Shown: positions 3,026 through 61,760 of the stretch, one piece after another
Numbering within the stretch: position 1 is the stretch's first letter
How the letters are laid out: every line of letters begins with the position of its first letter
From: Eledone cirrhosa
Lineage: Eukaryota
Assembly (NCBI GenBank): GCA_964016885.1
Contig: OZ024752.1
Span: 7,316,001 to 7,380,000, forward strand
Direction: 5' to 3'
DNA length: 64,000 nt
Made by a program: the position numbers and the translations under genes
Notes under the pieces: generated by a model
The model's input: only the letters and a program-made list of their open reading frames with translations
Database searches by the model: none
What the model was told of the DNA's origin: nothing

Positions 3026-6000
3026 GGACAGTGGTGTTAGGGTGGACAGTGGTGTTAGGGTGGACAGTGGAGACAGACTGGTGTTAGGGTGGACAGTGGT
3101 GTTAGGGTGGACAGTGGAGACAGACTGGTGTTAGGGTGGACAGTGGTGTTAGAGTGGACAGTGGAGACAGACTGGTGTTAGGGTGGACAGTGGTGTTAGG
3201 GTGGACAGTGGAGACAGACTGGTGTTAGGGTGGACAGTGGTGTTAGGGTGGACAGTGGTGTTAGGGTGGACAGTGGAGACAGACTGGTGTTAGGGTGGAC
3301 AGTGGTGTTAGGGTGGACAGTGGAGACAGACTGGTGTTAGGGTGGACAGTGGTGTTAGGGTGGACAGTGGAGACAGACTGGTGTTAGGGTGGACAGTGGT
3401 GTTAGGGTGGACAGTGGTGTTAGGGTGGACAGTGGTGTTAGGGTGGACAGTGGAGACAGACTGGTGTTAGGGTGGACAGTGGTGTTAGAGTGGACAGTGG
3501 AGACAGACTGGTGTTAGGGTGGACAGTGGTGTTAGGGTGGACAGTGGAGACAGACTGGTGTTAGGGTGGACAGTGGTGTTAGAGTGGACAGTGGAGACAG
3601 ACTGGTGTTAGGGTGGACAGTGGTGTTAGGGTGGACAGTGGAGACAGACTGGTGTTAGGGTGGACAGTGGTGTTAGAGTGGACAGTGGAGACAGACTGGT
3701 GTTAGGGTGGACAGTGGTGTTAGGGTGGACAGTGGAGACAGACTGGTGTTAGGGTGGACAGTGGTGTTAGGGTGGACAGTGGAGACAGACTGGTGTTAGG
3801 GTGGACAGTGGTGTTAGGGTGGACAGTGGAGACAGACTGGTGTTAGGGTGGACAGTGGTGTTAGGGTGGACAGTGGTGTTAGGGTGGACAGTGGAGACAG
3901 ACTGGTGTTAGGGTGGACAGTGGTGTTAGGGTGGACAGTGGTGTTAGGGTGGACAGTGGAGACAGACTGGTGTTAGGGTGGACAGTGGTGTTAGGGTGGA
4001 CAGTGGAGACAGACTGGTGTTAGGGTGGACAGTGGTGTTAGGGTGGACAGTGGTGTTAGGGTGGACAGTGGAGACAGACTGGTGTTAGGGTGGACAGTGG
4101 TGTTAGGGTGGACAGTGGAGACAGACTGGTGTTAGGGTGGACAGTGGTGTTAGAGTGGACAGTGGAGACAGACTGGTGTTAGGGTGGACAGTGGTGTTAG
4201 GGTGGACAGTGGAGACAGACTGGTGTTAGGGTGGACAGTGGTGTTAGGGTGGACAGTGGTGTTAGGGTGGACAGTGGAGACAGACTGGTGTTAGGGTGGA
4301 CAGTGGTGTTAGGGTGGACAGTGGAGACAGACTGGTGTTAGGGTGGACAGTGGTGTTAGGGTGGACAGTGGAGACAGACTGGTGTTAGGGTGGACAGTGG
4401 TGTTAGGGTGGACAGTGGAGACAGACTGGTGTTAGGGTGGACAGTGGTGTTAGAGTGGACAGTGGAGACAGACTGGTGTTAGGGTGGACAGTGGTGTTAG
4501 GGTGGACAGTGGAGACAGACTGGTGTTAGGGTGGACAGTGGTGTTAGGGTGGACAGTGGAGACAGACTGGTGTTAGGGTGGACAGTGGTGTTAGGGTGGA
4601 CAGTGGAGACAGACTGGTGTTAGGGTGGACAGTGGTGTTAGAGTGGACAGTGGAGACAGACTGGTGTTAGGGTGGACAGTGGTGTTAGGGTGGACAGTGG
4701 AGACAGACTGGTGTTAGGGTGGACAGTGGTGTTAGGGTGGACAGTGGAGACAGACTGGTGTTAGGGTGGACAGTGGTGTTAGGGTGGACAGTGGTGTTAG
4801 GGTGGACAGTGGAGACAGACTGGTGTTAGGGGGTGGACAGTGGTGTTAGAGTGGACAGTGGAGACAGACTGGTGTTAGGGTGGACAGTGGTGTTAGGGTG
4901 GACAGTGGAGACAGACTGATGTTAGGGTGGACAGTGGTGTTAGAGTGGACAGTGGAGACAGACTGGTGTTAGGGTGGACAGTGGTGTTAGGGTGGACAGT
5001 GGTGTTAGGGTGGACAGTGGAGACAGACTGGTGTTAGGGTGGACAGTGGTGTTAGGGTGGACAGTGGTGTTAGGGTGGACAGTGGAGACAGACTGGTGTT
5101 AGGGTGGACAGTGGTGTTAGAGTGGACAGTGGAGACAGACTGGTGTTAGGCTGGACAGTGGTGTTAGGGTGGACAGTGGAGACAGACTGGTGTTAGGGTG
5201 GACAGTGGTGTTAGGGTGGACAGTGGTGTTAGGGTGGACAGTGGAGACAGACTGGTGTTAGGGTGGACAGTGGTGTTAGGGTGGACAGTGGAGACAGACT
5301 GGTGTTAGGGTGGACAGTGGTGTTAGGGTGGACAGTGGTGTTAGGGTGGACAGTGGAGACAGACTGGTGTTAGGGTGGACAGTGGTGTTAGAGTGGACAG
5401 TGGAGACAGACTGGTGTTAGGGTGGACAGTGGTGTTAGGGTGGACAGTGGAGACAGACTGGTGTTAGGGTGGACAGTGGAGACAGACTGGTGTTAGGGTG
5501 GACAGTGGTGTTAGGGTGGACAGTGGAGACAGACTGGTGTTAGGGTGGACAGTGGAGACAGACTGGTGTTAGGGTGGACAGTGGAGACAGACTGGTGTTA
5601 GGGTGGACAGTGGAGACAGACTGGTGTTAGGGTGGACAGTGGAGACAGACTGGTGTTAGGGTGGACAGTGGTGTTAGAGTGGACAGTGGAGACAGACTGG
5701 TGTTAGGGTGGACAGTGGAGACAGACTGGTGTTAGGGTGGACAGTGGTGTTAGAGTGGACAGTGGAGACAGACTGGTGTTAGGGTGGACAGTGGTGTTAG
5801 GGTGGACAGTGGAGACAGACTGGTGTTAGGGTGGACAGTGGTGTTAGGGTGGACAGTGGAGACAGACTGGTGTTAGGGTGGACAGTGGTGTTAGGGTGGA
5901 CAGTGGTGTTAGGGTGGACAGTGGTGTTAGGGTGGACAGTGGTGTTAGGGTGGACAGTGGAGACAGACTGGTGTTAGGGTGGACAGTGGTGTTAGGGTGG

Positions 6001-11144: not shown

Positions 11145-11342
11145 AACCAAATGAAAAAGATATATGTTTATATATAGAGAGAGAAAGAGCCATTTATTCT
11201 TCAAGAAACACAGTATATTGTATATATACCAAATACATATTCTTCTATAGAATATGTATTTGGTATATTTTCAATATACTGTGTTTCTTGTTCAATATAT
11301 GACTCTTTCTCTCTATATATATAAACATATCTCTATTTGGTT
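11145..11342. repeat. Imperfect palindrome (~95-bp arms)
   Basis: AACCAAAT...ATACCAAATACATATTCT / AGAATATGTATTTGGTAT...ATTTGGTT. Confidence 0.8.
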
Positions 11343-19823: not shown

Positions 19824-20299
19824 TATATATAGTAATAAACAGAAGATATATACTTTATATCATCTCTATTTATTTCATTATATATATTTCAAAGATGTAA
19901 AGTTTTATATATAACATAAAGCAAAACACGTCCTCCTCATATAAAATACATAGAAGATGTATAATTTTTTCATATGCTAGTAGACAAACGAACTGGGCAG
20001 ATCGATGACCACCATATATATATATATATATAATGATGGAAGTGAGATAAGGAACCAGATGGACCATAACGCACCAGAGTACTCAATATTTAGGGTAGTA
20101 GGTTGGGTAATATATATATATAAACTAGAAATCGATTGACATATATATATATATATCATATTAAAGATACTATTTATAGTTTTGTATATACTATACTATA
20201 AACAATTATAAACAGGGAAGGTCAGTAATTTATTACTACCTTATTACCAGTAAGAGAAATAGCTCAATGTAAGAACATCAGTTGTTTTACAAAGCAGTT

Positions 20300-20686
20300 A
20301 TATAGAATTCACAAGTATCAAAGTTATGTTTAAATCATTTAATCGCTGACAATTGTTTCTTCCAAATTTTAGTTTGGAGTTATCAGAGCATTATCAATGT
20401 TTGTACATATAATTAACCTCCTATTCAACTGAAGAATCATATAGATACATATATATTGATGTTGTGAACAACAGTTTAGTATATATAGGGTTAGGGTTAT
20501 ATATACTAAACTGTTATTCACAACATCAATATATATGTATCTATATGATTCTTCAGTTGAATAGGAGGTTAATTATATGTACAAACATTGATAATGCTCT
20601 GATAACTCCAAACTAAAATTTGGAAGAAACAATTATCAGCAATTAAATGATTTAAACATAACTTTGATACTTGTGTAATCTATATA
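20300..20686. repeat. Long palindrome (~190-bp arms) with a hammerhead motif in each arm and a GGGTTAGGGT apex
   Basis: Arms are near-exact reverse complements; motifs at 20345-20389(-) and 20596-20640(+) with CTGATAA core; loop at 20488-20497. Confidence 0.9.
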
Positions 20687-21320
20687 TATATATATATATA
20701 TAAAATATATATATATATATATAAAATAAACATGAAACAATCACAGGGGATAATTTGTAAAGAGTGTAAGCACACACAGCTAGGTAGGTAACTAATTAAA
20801 GTTTAACGAGAACTTCAAATATTTAAAAATGATTAATTATTTTTAAAAGGTATCTATCTTTACAAATTATCCCCTGTGATTGTTTCATATGTTTATTTTA
20901 TATATATATATGTCAATTGATTTCTAGTTGATATAAATGCTCGAATCTATTTATTGGAATCTTTGAGCTTATTCTACAGAGGTTATGGTGCATGTTTTTC
21001 AAACATGACATCCTTAATTTAATTTTGGGTATATATATATATATATATATATAAAGCTAATTTTAAGTTTAATCAATACCTATAAAATATATATTGATAA
21101 TGTTTCTTAGTAGAAAGTCCAATAAACTTCTGTTCAGAGAATGTATAATACAAATATAAAGGATATATAACAAGATATATCAATTGAGAAACTAGTATTT
21201 TGTATACATATATATATATATCAATTTTGAGTATATGTTGGTTGTATACCAACACCTCAGTATGCAGACTGGAGCACTCGACGAAGTGCGCAGGTTGGTT
21301 TGGTTACTCCGGAGTAGTGT

Positions 21321-21665
21321 AAAATAAAATAAAATAAATAAGTCAAATGTTTAAAATTTGGCTTCGTTTATTACTGCTATATATATTTCGGTGACAGCCA
21401 TCTTTGGCTGTGACCTCTTCAGGCAGTCCGAATTTCACTGAGGAACTGGAATCATATGATTCCAGTTCCTCAGTGAAATAACAACCCCACCAGGAACTGG
21501 GCATATCAGAGTATTGACGAAGTTATACACCTCAACAACATGTGTACTCGTCTCTACCACACTAATTCGGACTGCCTGAAGAGGTCACAGCCAAAGATGG
21601 CTGTCACTGAAATATATATACCAGTAATAAACGAAGCCAAATTTTAAACATTTGACATTTTATTT

Positions 21666-21670
<5 letters not shown>
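21321..21670. repeat. Inverted repeat with hammerhead motifs in both arms and a nested perfect 48-bp palindrome
   Basis: ACTGC-CTGAAGA-GGT..ACAGCC/GGCTGT..ACC-GAAA-TATATA-TA-GCAGT at 21373-21427(-) and 21571-21625(+); palindrome at 21432-21479. Confidence 0.88.
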
Positions 21671-21717
<47 letters not shown>

Positions 21718-40231: not shown

Positions 40232-42029
40232 CATATATATATGATATGTATATATACTCTCCTTACTATCCTTGCTTTCATATTTCTCCTTGCTCCCCTT
40301 TTTTCATCGTATTTGTATATAAACAAGTACATAGATAGGAGAAAGGGAGAGCAAGGAGAAAATTAGAGCAGGGAGAGCAATGAGAAAAGGAGAGCAAGGA
40401 GAACAAAGAGAGGAAGGAGAAAATGAGAGCAGGGAGGGCAAGGAGAAAAGGAGAGCAGGGAGGGCAAGGAGAAAAGGAGAGCAGGGAGGGCAAGGAGAAA
40501 AGGAGAGCAGGGAGGGCAAGGAGAAAAGGAGAGCAATGAGGAAAGGAGAGCAATGAAAGCAAGGAGAAAAGTAGAGCAATGAGAGCAATGGGAAAAGGAG
40601 AGCAAGGGGTTGCCTGGATGTGTCCACATAAATTTCTCTAAGAAGAAAAAAGAACAGAATTAATGGTTGTGTATACTATGTTCCAACTTCAAGGTGTTTA
40701 AGGGTCACCTAACAGTTGTCTGATTGAGCTGAAATTTTACACACCCTGTTGTTTTGTTGATTGGGACAGGATTAGGGGGTGGGAGCTGCAAAACTTTCAC
40801 TTCCAGAAAATTATCTATTGCTAGGGGCCACCCTAATATTTATATATTAGATATATATATATATATATCTAATATAGAAGCTTCATTCAGGAGAAATCAT
40901 CAGGAAGCTGGCTTCCTGATGATTTCTCCCGAAAATAGTTCTAGTCCTGTAGAAGCCTTTCTATATTAAATATTTATACTCTGCTTTCTCATTGATCAGA
41001 TATCATTACCCCCCCCCCCCCCCCCAGCCATTCCAGCAAAGGACATGCCCTCATCTCATTGGTCAGATATCATATCTCCTCCCAGTCATTCCAGCAGCGA
41101 AGGACATGCCCTCATCTCATTGGTCAGATATCATACCCCCCCCCCCCCACCCCCCACCCCCACAGCCGAAAGTCCATTGGAATTCTTAGTCAGTTCTCCC
41201 AGAAACAGGTCTACGTGTTAGAGTTGCTTTTAATTGCATATATATTCTGGTCCAGTTGACCTACTTCAGTGGTGGTAGTGGTGTGAGCAGGTCAATCACT
41301 CTCACCCTGTTGTGGTGGTATTTAGGTTATCAAGTAAGAATTTATGTAGGTAAACTGATATGGGGTCCTCTGGTGGTGTTAATGCTTCTCCATATCGTTA
41401 GGTGTTATAGTGGGAGATGGTATAAATGTGTTAAAATCTACAAGTGTTAAGAATTATAATCTGTATTTTAAACATGTAGTACACATTCTCACACATATAA
41501 ATATAAGTGCACTTACATATCTACATCCACACATACACATACATCCGTACACATATATACATGCACACACACACACATGTACATACGTATACACAGACTC
41601 ATATGTCTCCTCAAGGGGTGGGGAGAGAAGTAATAGTAATCTTATTGTAATAGTTAGTACTGACTCTTGCGTGCAAAAGGGGTCAGGTGTGAGGTAGTAT
41701 ATCCTTCGGAGAATTGGATCAAGGCTGAGGTTGGGTGGTGAGGCCCGGTGGTTGGAAACGTGGGGTGCCTGGTTGCACACAGGGTGGGACTCTGCTGACA
41801 TACATCACAACGCTAATTAGCTATTGTCCGCTAACTTGGGTTCGAGTTATGGAAGTGAGAAGGGTGGACCACAGCGGTGTGAGGCACTGGTCTAGCTGCT
41901 AGGTGTGGCTCGGTGGTGTTATAAGTGCTATTCTAGAAGAGAGGTAGGTATAGGGGGTGGGGTTGGTGTCTCGGAGGCTCAGTGATACGGGGGTTGCTAT
42001 ATAGCTTGAGGAAAGTTCCCGTCCTAAGG

Positions 42030-50995: not shown

Positions 50996-51089
50996 TTCTA
51001 CAGGACTAGAATTGTTTCATTTGTGAGAAATCATCAGGAAGCTTCCTGATGATTTCTCACGAATGAAACAATTCTAGTCCTGTAGAAGC
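50996..51089. ncRNA. Back-to-back hammerhead motifs forming a palindrome centred on GGAAG|CTTCC
   Basis: Plus copy GCTTC-CTGATGA-TTTC..GAAT-GAAA-CA...TG-TA-GAAGC at 51041-51089, mirrored on minus; relatives at ~40885-40957, ~49080-49110 and ~63800-63843. Confidence 0.75.
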
Positions 51090-60105: not shown

Positions 60106-61760
60106 TACTGAGTCAATGGGGTTGTCTAAATCTTTTCAGGGCAGTGCCCCAGTTTGGCCACAGTTCAGTGACAGAAAAGGATAGGTTTAACAACAATATT
60201 AAATGTAGGAAATAGTTTGGAAGATTATAAATATATAGGGAGACAAACAAGAGATTCGGAATAAACACTCTGGTCTTGGTCGAACAGATCAAGTTTATTG
60301 TTGAACAGAAGTATATAGAATGGAAGTATTCAAAAAAGGGTTAAAATAATAAATAGAAAGGGAGAGGGTAAACTTTACAATCCTGACTAAGTATATTTCA
60401 GCTGCGCCCAGTAGACAAACTGACCAGAGCATTGCTACGGTGAACAGCCAGCAACTCCCGCTGCATCAGCCATTCCACCTCACGAGGATCTTTCCGGGGG
60501 GGGGATACACTCCTCCCGATTTTTGCGGAGGAAAACGTTAGTTTGGGAACCAAAGATACCCGGGGGTTGTCAACGGCAACCCGTACAATAAAAGAAGCAG
60601 CTGGTCAAATCTTTACCAGTTTATGGCCGAAGTGAAAAGGTTGTAATAGCGATAACAACTCAAGATAAGTGACCACCCTTTAGATCAATCATGTCAAACT
60701 GAGGGTTCCCCCCCCGGGTCACATATGTTGTCTGAGGGCCACACATGACAACTAATTGCGCACATTACAACTAATAATTTTAATTTTATATTACGAAGAT
60801 AAAACATGCTTGTGCTGTAAAACCCATTGTGTGGGCCACATGCCTGCTTTAGAAGACCAACCCGACCGAAACACTCACATTTTATTATACAAAACCACCC
60901 ATTTTAAAGGGTTCCTATCTAAATTAAAATATTCCAACATAATATAAGAACAGTTATAACTTAGTAATCTATCTATCATTTTACGTCCCTGCTTGCAAGG
61001 GTGGGACGGGAACTGATTCTGGCTTGATTTCTACAGCTGGATGCCCTTCCTAACACCAACCTCATTTACAGTGAGTGCTGGGTGCTTTTTTGCCATGGCA
61101 CCTCCACAACCACTTTGCAGTGAAATGATAGGGACCCGTCCTATCATCTCATTTCTACAGCTGAGTAAACTGGAGCAATGTGAAATAAAGTGTCTTGCTC
61201 AAGGAAACAACACATCACCCAGTCTGAGAATTGAACTCACAACCTTTCGATTGCAAGGCCAATGCTCTAACCACTAAGCCATGTGCCTGCTTAGTAATGA
61301 GGTATCTAATTATTTTTGTAAATCCCTGAACATTCTCTATTAATTGAAATACTGTGTATTTCGTTTTCCTGACATTTGTACATTATTCTATGTACTCTAC
61401 ATGCACCTTTGATGAGTTGTAGTGCACATGAGCACTGTACACAATAATTTCATTATCATTATTATTAAAAATACACGAAAAGTGATAAATGGTAATCTTT
61501 CGAATTAGGTAAACAGTGTTTCCTGTAGATATATGGAGAAGTTAGAAAGAGATGTCCATGGATATTTCCTCTGGAATTTACACATTGTTCAATCAGGTAC
61601 CATTAGTCTATGAAGGCTGATTATAATCTTAAGTTAAGTTGTCTGTCTCTCAAATAAGTTTTAGATGTATAAATAGTAGACTGGTTATATTTCTTCAGAT
61701 GTTTCTATCTATTTAGTATGATCTGACTTGTCTCAGCTATTGTTAAAAGATGTCATATTA

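What the first reader, a model, noticed from the sequence alone, without database searches (positions are those of the whole stretch)
20300..20686. Hammerhead-bearing palindrome with telomeric TAGGGTTAGGGTTA at its exact apex
Seen: ~190-bp near-perfect arms joined by a 10-nt loop GGGTTAGGGT; both arms carry the same core change CTGATAA instead of CTGATGA. Established: PLE RTs are related to telomerase, and some PLEs attach to telomeric repeats. Inference: the fold-back arose when telomeric repeats were added to, or copied at, a broken or nascent cDNA end before the strand turned back. The shared core change implies the arms were copied from each other or homogenised after it arose.
Basis: partly seen in the sequence, partly recalled or inferred. 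Interest (0 to 1): 0.75.

Follow-up and report, generated by a model that had tools for sequence, protein, structure and literature searches.

The report
Folded-back Penelope retroelement, telomere-like tip
This mirror-image stretch is one of many back-to-back insertions of a Penelope-like jumping gene, and its telomere-like tip is mostly the element's own letters plus six new ones, likely added by a copying stutter, although telomerase, which likely left short telomere inserts elsewhere in this genome, remains a real alternative.

Summary
The palindrome is real: 189-nt arms, 5 mismatches, loop GGGTTAGGGT. It is an ordinary head-to-head pair of 5'-truncated ends of an abundant Penelope-like element (PLE) in a (TA)n tract. 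One anchor pattern alone finds 112 such pairs in the genome, and the arrangement is published. Eight of the 14 telomere-like letters are element sequence: the family continues TATATATAGGGT, and the right arm starts with TA. Only TAGGGT (20492-20497) is new. None of 72 other fold-back junctions has a telomeric apex, while about 10 carry re-copied local sequence. Best reading (0.6): the terminal hexamer was re-copied during joining. Telomerase is not excluded (0.28). TTAGGG is this genome's telomere repeat and the polarity fits. Seven other sites show TTAGGG runs starting in (TA)n in the same register, far above generic slippage, and one is joined directly to a 5'-truncated PLE end. The family ribozyme core is CCGANGA, not CTGATGA, so both arms share two changes; shared rare variants also occur in 9 of 21 other fold-backs. 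Read support for the apex is inconclusive. The scan earlier reported two-armed PLE-type palindromes elsewhere in this genome, but no telomeric inserts turned up in my look-ups.

The parts
20141..20156 (.). left (TA)n target tract
   Evidence: sequence; the element's tail ends beside it
20158..20301 (-). PLE 'tail' extension, about 140 nt beyond the pLTR end, present on the left copy only
   Evidence: window 20158-20491 aligns to positions 4664-4333 of the full-length copy L040 at 93%
20302..20491 (-). left 5'-truncated pLTR copy (sense = minus strand); its 5' end includes the loop's first GGGT
20345..20389 (-). minimal hammerhead-like motif, left copy (core CTGATAA; G8A predicted to inactivate it)
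20486..20499 (+). telomere-like 14-mer TAGGGTTAGGGTTA; 20486-20491 come from the left copy, 20498-20499 from the right copy
20492..20497 (+). the 6 letters (TAGGGT) not accounted for by either arm: a tandem re-copy of the preceding hexamer or one telomerase repeat
   Evidence: junction gap of 6; tandem duplication
20498..20684 (+). right 5'-truncated pLTR copy, ending at the pLTR end without a tail
   Evidence: aligns to L040 4337-4523 at 94%
20596..20640 (+). minimal hammerhead-like motif, right copy (CTGATAA, plus G>A at 20635 that breaks the helix III C-G pair)
20681..20723 (.). right (TA)n target tract

Best explanation
The palindrome is a back-to-back pair of 5'-truncated ends of a Penelope-like retrotransposon in a TA microsatellite, and its six extra telomere-like letters are likely a stutter re-copy of the element's own terminal TAGGGT made while the two ends were joined. 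Shown: the element identity, the tail-on-one-arm layout, the element origin of 8 of the 14 letters, and similar re-copies at other junctions. Inferred: the PLE endonuclease cut the (TA)n tract. Reverse transcription began at the tail on one side and at the pLTR end on the other, either as two cDNAs from one source or as one cDNA folding back on its TA. Synthesis stopped at the internal TATATATA-GGGT. The polymerase copied the last hexamer twice before continuing. The two shared core changes were in the common template or were copied arm to arm; G8A likely kills the ribozyme.
For: Element: the arm has 1,715 first-look candidates, and the best-scoring other copies (loci L003-L030) are 94-97% identical. 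Full-length copy L040 has an inverted pLTR, an ORF with RT motifs and C-terminal GIY-YIG, a pLTR and a tail (GIY-YIG E=4e-4). Layout: one arm ends at the pLTR end and the other in the tail in 23 of 31 loci, as in the window. There are 112 head-to-head pairs for one anchor. Such inverted copies are typical of PLEs (PMC8557442 and PMC3846280, passages). Apex: 33 of 36 exact copies of the 20-mer ending GGGT go on with G, and only the window goes on with TA. No telomeric apex in 46 distinct junctions (50 of the 112 read; longest match 7 nt and family-encoded) or in 26 distinct same-family junctions (at most 5 nt). Local re-copies at junctions: L059, L063, L066, L079, L092 and L070, L012, L020, L022, L035 (read by eye), about 10 of 72. 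A sister family with a longer TTAGGGT seed has 138 exact copies; the single match to seed+TA is a 1-nt insertion with the family sequence continuing. Telomeric 10-mers within 200 nt upstream of the ribozyme anchor occur only here and at one unrelated site per polarity.
Against: The re-copy here has 0-2 nt of microhomology, whereas most of the other stutters sit on longer local repeats. The apex 26-mer is identical to two independent TTAGGG inserts in pure (TA)n tracts, so it matches a telomerase-type class letter for letter. The G-rich strand lies on the cDNA 3' end, the polarity telomerase needs. The rate comparison behind 0.6 versus 0.28 is my rough estimate and is uncertain by about tenfold. 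How many sister-family copies were cut exactly at their seed is unknown, so that negative is weak.
Confidence: 0.6

Rival explanations
1. Telomerase used the exposed 3' end ...TATATATAGGGT (a stalled cDNA or a break at the tip) as a primer and added TAGGGTTA; the terminal TA then paired with the TA of the other end, or of its own strand, and the junction was filled in.
For: TTAGGG arrays cap 6 of 20 contig ends fetched, in the right orientation. Seven other sites start TTAGGG runs inside (TA)n in the same TA|GGGTTA register: 2, 2, 3, 5, 3.7, 2+ and many units; reversed-pattern controls are 0. Generic slippage cannot explain them: 1 equal-unit doubling among 6,148 non-GGGT sites, against 2 others besides the window for 11 GGGT sites. 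L101 has 22 telomeric letters between a host TA tract and a 5'-truncated hammerhead-bearing PLE end. In mammals telomerase inserts favour break ends in register (PMC2246262, PMC7215372, passages). Endonuclease-less PLEs receive telomeric repeats at truncated 5' ends (PMC3846280, passage).
Against: Only one repeat unit is new, and it equals the preceding 6 letters. 0 of 72 other fold-back junctions are telomeric. Such inserts are very rare: 7 sites against roughly 5 million TA tracts (extrapolated from 109 in the window). They are not enriched next to ribozyme-family ends: 4 of 7 against 51 of 109 window tracts (crude library). Single-unit inserts are not above their control (11 against 12).
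Confidence: 0.28
2. The junction first formed as (TA)4-GGGT-(TA)4, and later replication slippage on the flanking TA duplicated TAGGGT.
For: TA direct repeats flank GGGT (sequence), and the site is an interrupted microsatellite.
Against: This exact kind of doubling is seen once among 6,148 non-GGGT interrupted tracts. The unduplicated form is not found for this family.
Confidence: 0.05
3. The six letters are untemplated or unrelated filler that resembles both the telomere repeat and the preceding hexamer by chance.
For: Short unexplained inserts occur at other junctions (2-5 nt in L003, L019, L029, L126).
Against: An exact 6-nt match to the adjacent sequence has a chance of order 1 in several thousand (arithmetic).
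Confidence: 0.04
4. The palindrome or its apex is a fold-back sequencing or assembly artefact.
For: No contig of runs X1 or X2 reaches past 20497, and no X21 read covers 20510-20525.
Against: The arms differ at 5 places, three of them C>T changes on one arm only, and they end at the two family-typical ends. A contig from another study (X4) runs 20323-20505 through the loop with at most one difference there. It has only 8 letters beyond the loop, depth 2, and 7 clustered differences elsewhere, so it is weak support.
Confidence: 0.03

Closest known systems
Endonuclease-containing Penelope-like elements with inverted 5'-truncated pLTR and tail (PMC8557442, PMC3846280: passages; PMC11167929: parts 1-2 of 4)
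   Same: Head-to-head inverted pLTR copies, a tail on one arm only, (TA)n targets, a single ORF with RT and C-terminal GIY-YIG, a hammerhead-like motif in the pLTR.
   Different: The tail is about 140 nt here against 30-40 bp described. A telomere-like junction is not mentioned in the passages read. The clade was not placed on a tree.
Minimal hammerheads of metazoan PLEs (Cervera and De la Pena 2014, PMC4209133: parts 1-2 of 4)
   Same: Short helix I, 7-bp helix II, an extra base after A9, a 2-bp helix III with a palindromic loop, and a free position 7.
   Different: The family core is CCGANGA (U4C), and helix II is not closed by G10.1-C11.1 and has an extra A before GAAA. The window's copies carry G8A.
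Short interstitial telomeric sequences inserted at double-strand breaks (PMC2246262, PMC7215372: passages)
   Same: Perfect TTAGGG units in register with the break end; the seven TA-tract inserts of this genome look like this.
   Different: Described there for mammals with four or more repeats and known empty sites. At this apex only one unit is new and no empty allele is known.
Endonuclease-less PLEs Athena and Coprina (PMC8557442, PMC3846280: passages)
   Same: Telomeric repeats next to a truncated 5' end, and a nearby hammerhead.
   Different: They lack GIY-YIG, sit at chromosome ends and carry reverse-complement telomeric stretches as a family trait. This family has GIY-YIG, is dispersed, and the site lies 7.3 Mb inside a 50-Mb contig.

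Membership tests
EN+ Penelope-like element | single ORF with PLE-type reverse transcriptase | tested here: inconclusive
   RT-like motifs (FDINSYY, GSSDS, YRDD) in translated pieces of related copies. No Pfam RVT_1 hit and no PDB hit. Atlas look-alikes at 0.93 carry RVT_1 in 15-35% of members. No tree was built.
EN+ Penelope-like element | C-terminal GIY-YIG endonuclease | tested here: met
   PF01541 E=4e-4, 21 bits, just under the curated cut-off of 22.6, downstream of the RT region and after a cysteine-rich linker.
EN+ Penelope-like element | pLTR tandem/inverted structure with a tail at one end | tested here: met
   L040 layout; pLTR-end/tail-end pairs in 23 of 31 loci and in the window.
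EN+ Penelope-like element | insertion into AT-rich or (TA)n targets | tested here: met
   TA tracts at both outer ends here and beside many copies.
Minimal type I hammerhead of PLEs | core CUGANGA ... GAAA ... UH | tested here: inconclusive
   The family has CCGANGA: CCGATGA 42, CCGAAGA 35, CCGAGGA 6 in the top rows. U4C is a known weaker natural variant (PMC3088659, passage). The window's copies have G8A, so the core is not met at this locus.
Minimal type I hammerhead of PLEs | three helices around the core | tested here: met
   91.6% of cells paired against 19-37% in slid controls, on 7 hand-picked sequences; covariation is weak (1 pair; 27 of 500 shuffles as high).
Minimal type I hammerhead of PLEs | G10.1-C11.1 closing pair | tested here: not met
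   Helix II starts U-A after an unpaired C, with an extra A before GAAA.
Minimal type I hammerhead of PLEs | self-cleavage | not testable with these tools
   Needs an assay.
Telomerase-inserted short interstitial telomeric sequence | repeat equals the host telomere repeat, G-strand extending a 3' end, in register | tested here: met
   TTAGGG at 6 of 20 contig ends; register and polarity at the apex.
Telomerase-inserted short interstitial telomeric sequence | several new repeat units absent from the empty site | tested here: not met
   Only 6 new letters, equal to the adjacent element sequence; no empty allele available.
EN- telomere-attaching PLE (Athena/Coprina) | no endonuclease; terminal location; family-wide telomeric stretches | tested here: not met
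   GIY-YIG present; copies dispersed over many contigs; no family-wide telomeric run.

The most novel reading that the evidence does not exclude
Host telomerase occasionally captures the free 3' ends made during Penelope-like element insertion into (TA)n tracts, both the target DNA end (L101) and the nascent cDNA end (this apex). It leaves one to five TTAGGG units that act as the joint between the two ends. The genome would then hold a fossil series of telomerase-assisted junctions of an endonuclease-containing retroelement.
Probability: 0.27. Interest if true: 0.55.

Novelty: new member of a known kind. Interest (0 to 1): 0.3.

Why it matters
As a PLE fold-back it is ordinary. The useful by-products are two. 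First, a set of 72 junctions with arm ends, asymmetries and re-copied pieces bears on the still open question of how PLE inverted structures form: some tail-less arms extend 0.5-1.2 kb further than the tail arm, so they cannot be simple copies of it. Second, a small class of TTAGGG runs starting in (TA)n tracts, one at a PLE 5' junction, suggests telomerase-mediated break repair in an invertebrate. If telomerase does join PLE ends, it would link an endonuclease-containing PLE to the behaviour known from its telomere-bound relatives.

Tried and rejected
Rfam: only hairpin-driven miRNA matches below threshold, no hammerhead. Telomere addition as the cause of fold-back: rejected, 0 of 72 other junctions. 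The whole loop as family consensus: rejected, only GGGT is. Generic slippage: too rare. Enrichment of telomeric inserts at PLE ends: not found, 4 of 7 against 51 of 109 (the library also holds flanking repeats, so the test is crude). Sister-family seed extension: none. L138 and L140 have the anchor outside any element and look like chance hits. Reads: no RNA holder listed. X1 and X2 contigs do not cover the far side of the loop, and a hole proves nothing. The stretches laid held only the first 28 nt of the right arm, so no run could show the whole palindrome. X4 looks like a trace of the same species (a 151-nt contig identical over the left junction, depth 2), and its apex contig may be a chimera of two copies. 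One search was swamped by TA matches and redone. One search had misplaced brackets and was redone. Literature: no paper on telomeric repeats at inverted PLE junctions turned up (2 listed, off topic; 9 listed, none on this by title; 0 each). The library lacks most subscription papers and I read no supplements. The bioRxiv retrozyme preprint (10.64898/2026.07.22.740005, passages) had nothing on this point.

Full report
Observation. The window lies at G000:C12:7316001-7380000 in a 3.0-Gb animal genome; no call establishes the taxon. The palindrome is as described: arms 20299-20487 and 20498-20686, five mismatches, loop GGGTTAGGGT. The apex folds as a DNA hairpin with a 10-nt loop. CTGATAA is in both arms.

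What the arms are. The arm is a high-copy repeat: 1,715 first-look candidates, 40 scored, the best other copies 94-97% identical. Locus L040 holds a full-length relative: an inverted truncated pLTR, a short direct pLTR and tail, an ORF broken by frameshifts, a long 3' region, pLTR and tail. [quoted passage not shown] Pfam and PDB do not recognise the RT, and Atlas look-alikes carry RVT_1 in a minority of members. Against L040, the left copy runs 4664-4333 (tail plus pLTR, window 20158-20491) and the right copy 4337-4523 (window 20498-20684), with six letters between them. Both outer ends lie in (TA)n, so no target-site duplication can be read. The same layout, one arm to the pLTR end and one into the tail, holds for 23 of 31 loci; the other 8 are cut by the fetched stretch, interrupted, single-armed, tail-to-tail or listed only in part. 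One anchor pattern finds 112 close head-to-head pairs across sister families. Craig et al. (PMC8557442, passages) and Arkhipova et al. (PMC3846280, passages) describe inverted 5'-truncated copies and one-sided tails as typical of PLEs. Frangieh et al. (PMC11167929, parts 1-2 of 4) show cleavage and extension on both strands and two start sites that define the tail.

How the arms form (inferred). In L126 and L127 the tail-less arm reaches 1,188 and 534 nt further upstream than the tail arm, so it cannot be a copy of it; two separately primed cDNAs joined at their 3' ends fit best. In L012, L033, L035, L125 and the window the ends are within 11 nt of symmetry, often at short palindromes or TA runs, which also fits self-priming. 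I cannot separate the two routes for this locus. Earlier notes of this scan reached a two-ended model for retrozyme arrays elsewhere in the genome; I use them only as agreement.

The ribozyme. The family core is CCGATGA in 94 of the first 100 listed of 330 matches. Across sister families position 7 varies freely (T, A, G) while the rest stays, and three helices are kept: 91.6% paired against 19-37% in slid controls, weak covariation, 7 sequences. It resembles the minimal PLE hammerheads of Cervera and De la Pena (PMC4209133, parts 1-2 of 4) but has U4C and no G10.1-C11.1 pair; Rfam does not score it. Both arms carry C>T and G>A relative to the family (family frequencies 3/29 and 0/29; 4 and 2 of 100, never together), so they share one origin. 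That is usual: 9 of 21 other fold-backs share rare variants between arms, 7 of them variants seen only in that pair among 69 aligned copies. G8 changes abolish cleavage in a tested PLE hammerhead (PMC11167929), so this copy is likely dead.

The apex. The family continues past the arm with GGGTGTAATGG, so TAGGGT at 20486-20491 is element sequence and TA at 20498-20499 is the start of the right arm. Of 36 exact copies of the 20-mer ending GGGT, 33 continue with G and only the window continues with TA. I read 50 of the 112 pairs (46 distinct; five are copies of one junction): the longest telomeric match is 7 nt and is sister-family sequence. In 26 distinct same-family junctions it is at most 5 nt; some older copies map only approximately. 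About 10 of these 72 junctions carry re-copied local sequence (five judged by eye), two with 6-nt units in TA-rich context. This habit explains the six letters without another enzyme.

Evidence for telomerase. TTAGGG arrays cap 6 of 20 contig ends fetched. The apex 26-mer occurs at two other places, both inside plain TA tracts. Five more sites start longer runs in the same register; reversed controls are 0. Among (TA)4-SSSW-TA-SSSW-(TA)4 sites, 3 of 8 are GGGT twice, although GGGT makes up only 11 of 6,159 single sites, and 4 of those 11 are the end of another repeat family. At the generic rate about 0.002 doublings would be expected. So a telomere-specific insertion process exists here, like the in-register inserts of mammals (PMC2246262, PMC7215372, passages). 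L101 joins 22 telomeric letters directly to a 5'-truncated hammerhead-bearing PLE end. Against: these events are very rare, they are not enriched at PLE ends in a crude test, no sister-family seed is extended, and no other copy has a telomeric 10-mer within 200 nt of the anchor. My patterns required TA directly before the run, so other registers were not surveyed.

Weighing. A 6-nt terminal re-copy with little microhomology occurs at roughly 1% of junctions by my estimate. Telomerase capture looks like 1 in 10,000 or less per TA-ended junction, perhaps ten to forty times more at a 6-nt seed. These are rough figures, not tool results. I give 0.6 to stutter, 0.28 to telomerase and 0.12 to the rest.

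Artefact check. The arms differ at five places and end at the two family-typical ends. Runs X1 and X2 have no contig beyond the loop. X4, from another study, has one 183-nt contig through the loop, with 8 letters beyond it and 7 clustered differences elsewhere, and one contig identical over the left junction. This is weak support only.

Verdict. A real but ordinary PLE fold-back, a new member of a known kind. The telomere-like tip is mostly element-encoded and its origin cannot be settled at one site. The side finding of TTAGGG runs in TA tracts, one at a PLE junction, is the part worth a genome-wide count. Interest 0.3.

Noticed in passing
L095, L096, L099, L100, L102 (about position 1509) and L098: Perfect TTAGGG runs of 2-5 units starting in (TA)n tracts in the register TA|GGGTTA; L098 opens a long degenerate array. 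Likely telomerase inserts at breaks.
   Followed up: partly
L101 (G000:C19:33282357-33285378, minus strand, about 1510-1531): 22 telomeric letters between a host TA tract and the 5'-truncated start of another hammerhead-bearing PLE-type end; the clearest case of telomeric DNA at such a junction.
   Followed up: partly
L003-L030, L045-L094: Several sister PLE families keep a variant hammerhead core CCGANGA with different helix II loops (TAAA, CTCG, TTCC, CTAG).
   Followed up: partly
window 20112-20153 and 20900-20939; 20712-20912: An outer 40-nt inverted repeat and a second degenerate palindrome flank the finding; they look like nested insertions into one TA tract.
   Followed up: no
window 21327-21671, 11154-11338, about 51025-51058, about 40890-40927: Other fold-back repeats in the same window, three of them with hammerhead-like cores, all with non-telomeric centres.
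   Followed up: partly
L041 3394-5049: A 1.3-kb, 99% perfect palindrome with internal tandem repeats lies between two tail-to-tail copies of the element.
   Followed up: no
L144, L145, L147, L151: Another repeat family begins with GGGTTATATATAG and shows reiterated copies of that end in some members.
   Followed up: no
window 20480-20487 and 20498-20505: The apex sits on the element's internal TATATATA; a TATATATA box was proposed as a pLTR promoter element in a rotifer PLE (PMC3846280, passage). Untested here.
   Followed up: no
window 61220-61283: tRNA-like match (Rfam, 29.9 bits) inside a dispersed repeat, probably a tRNA-derived SINE.
   Followed up: no
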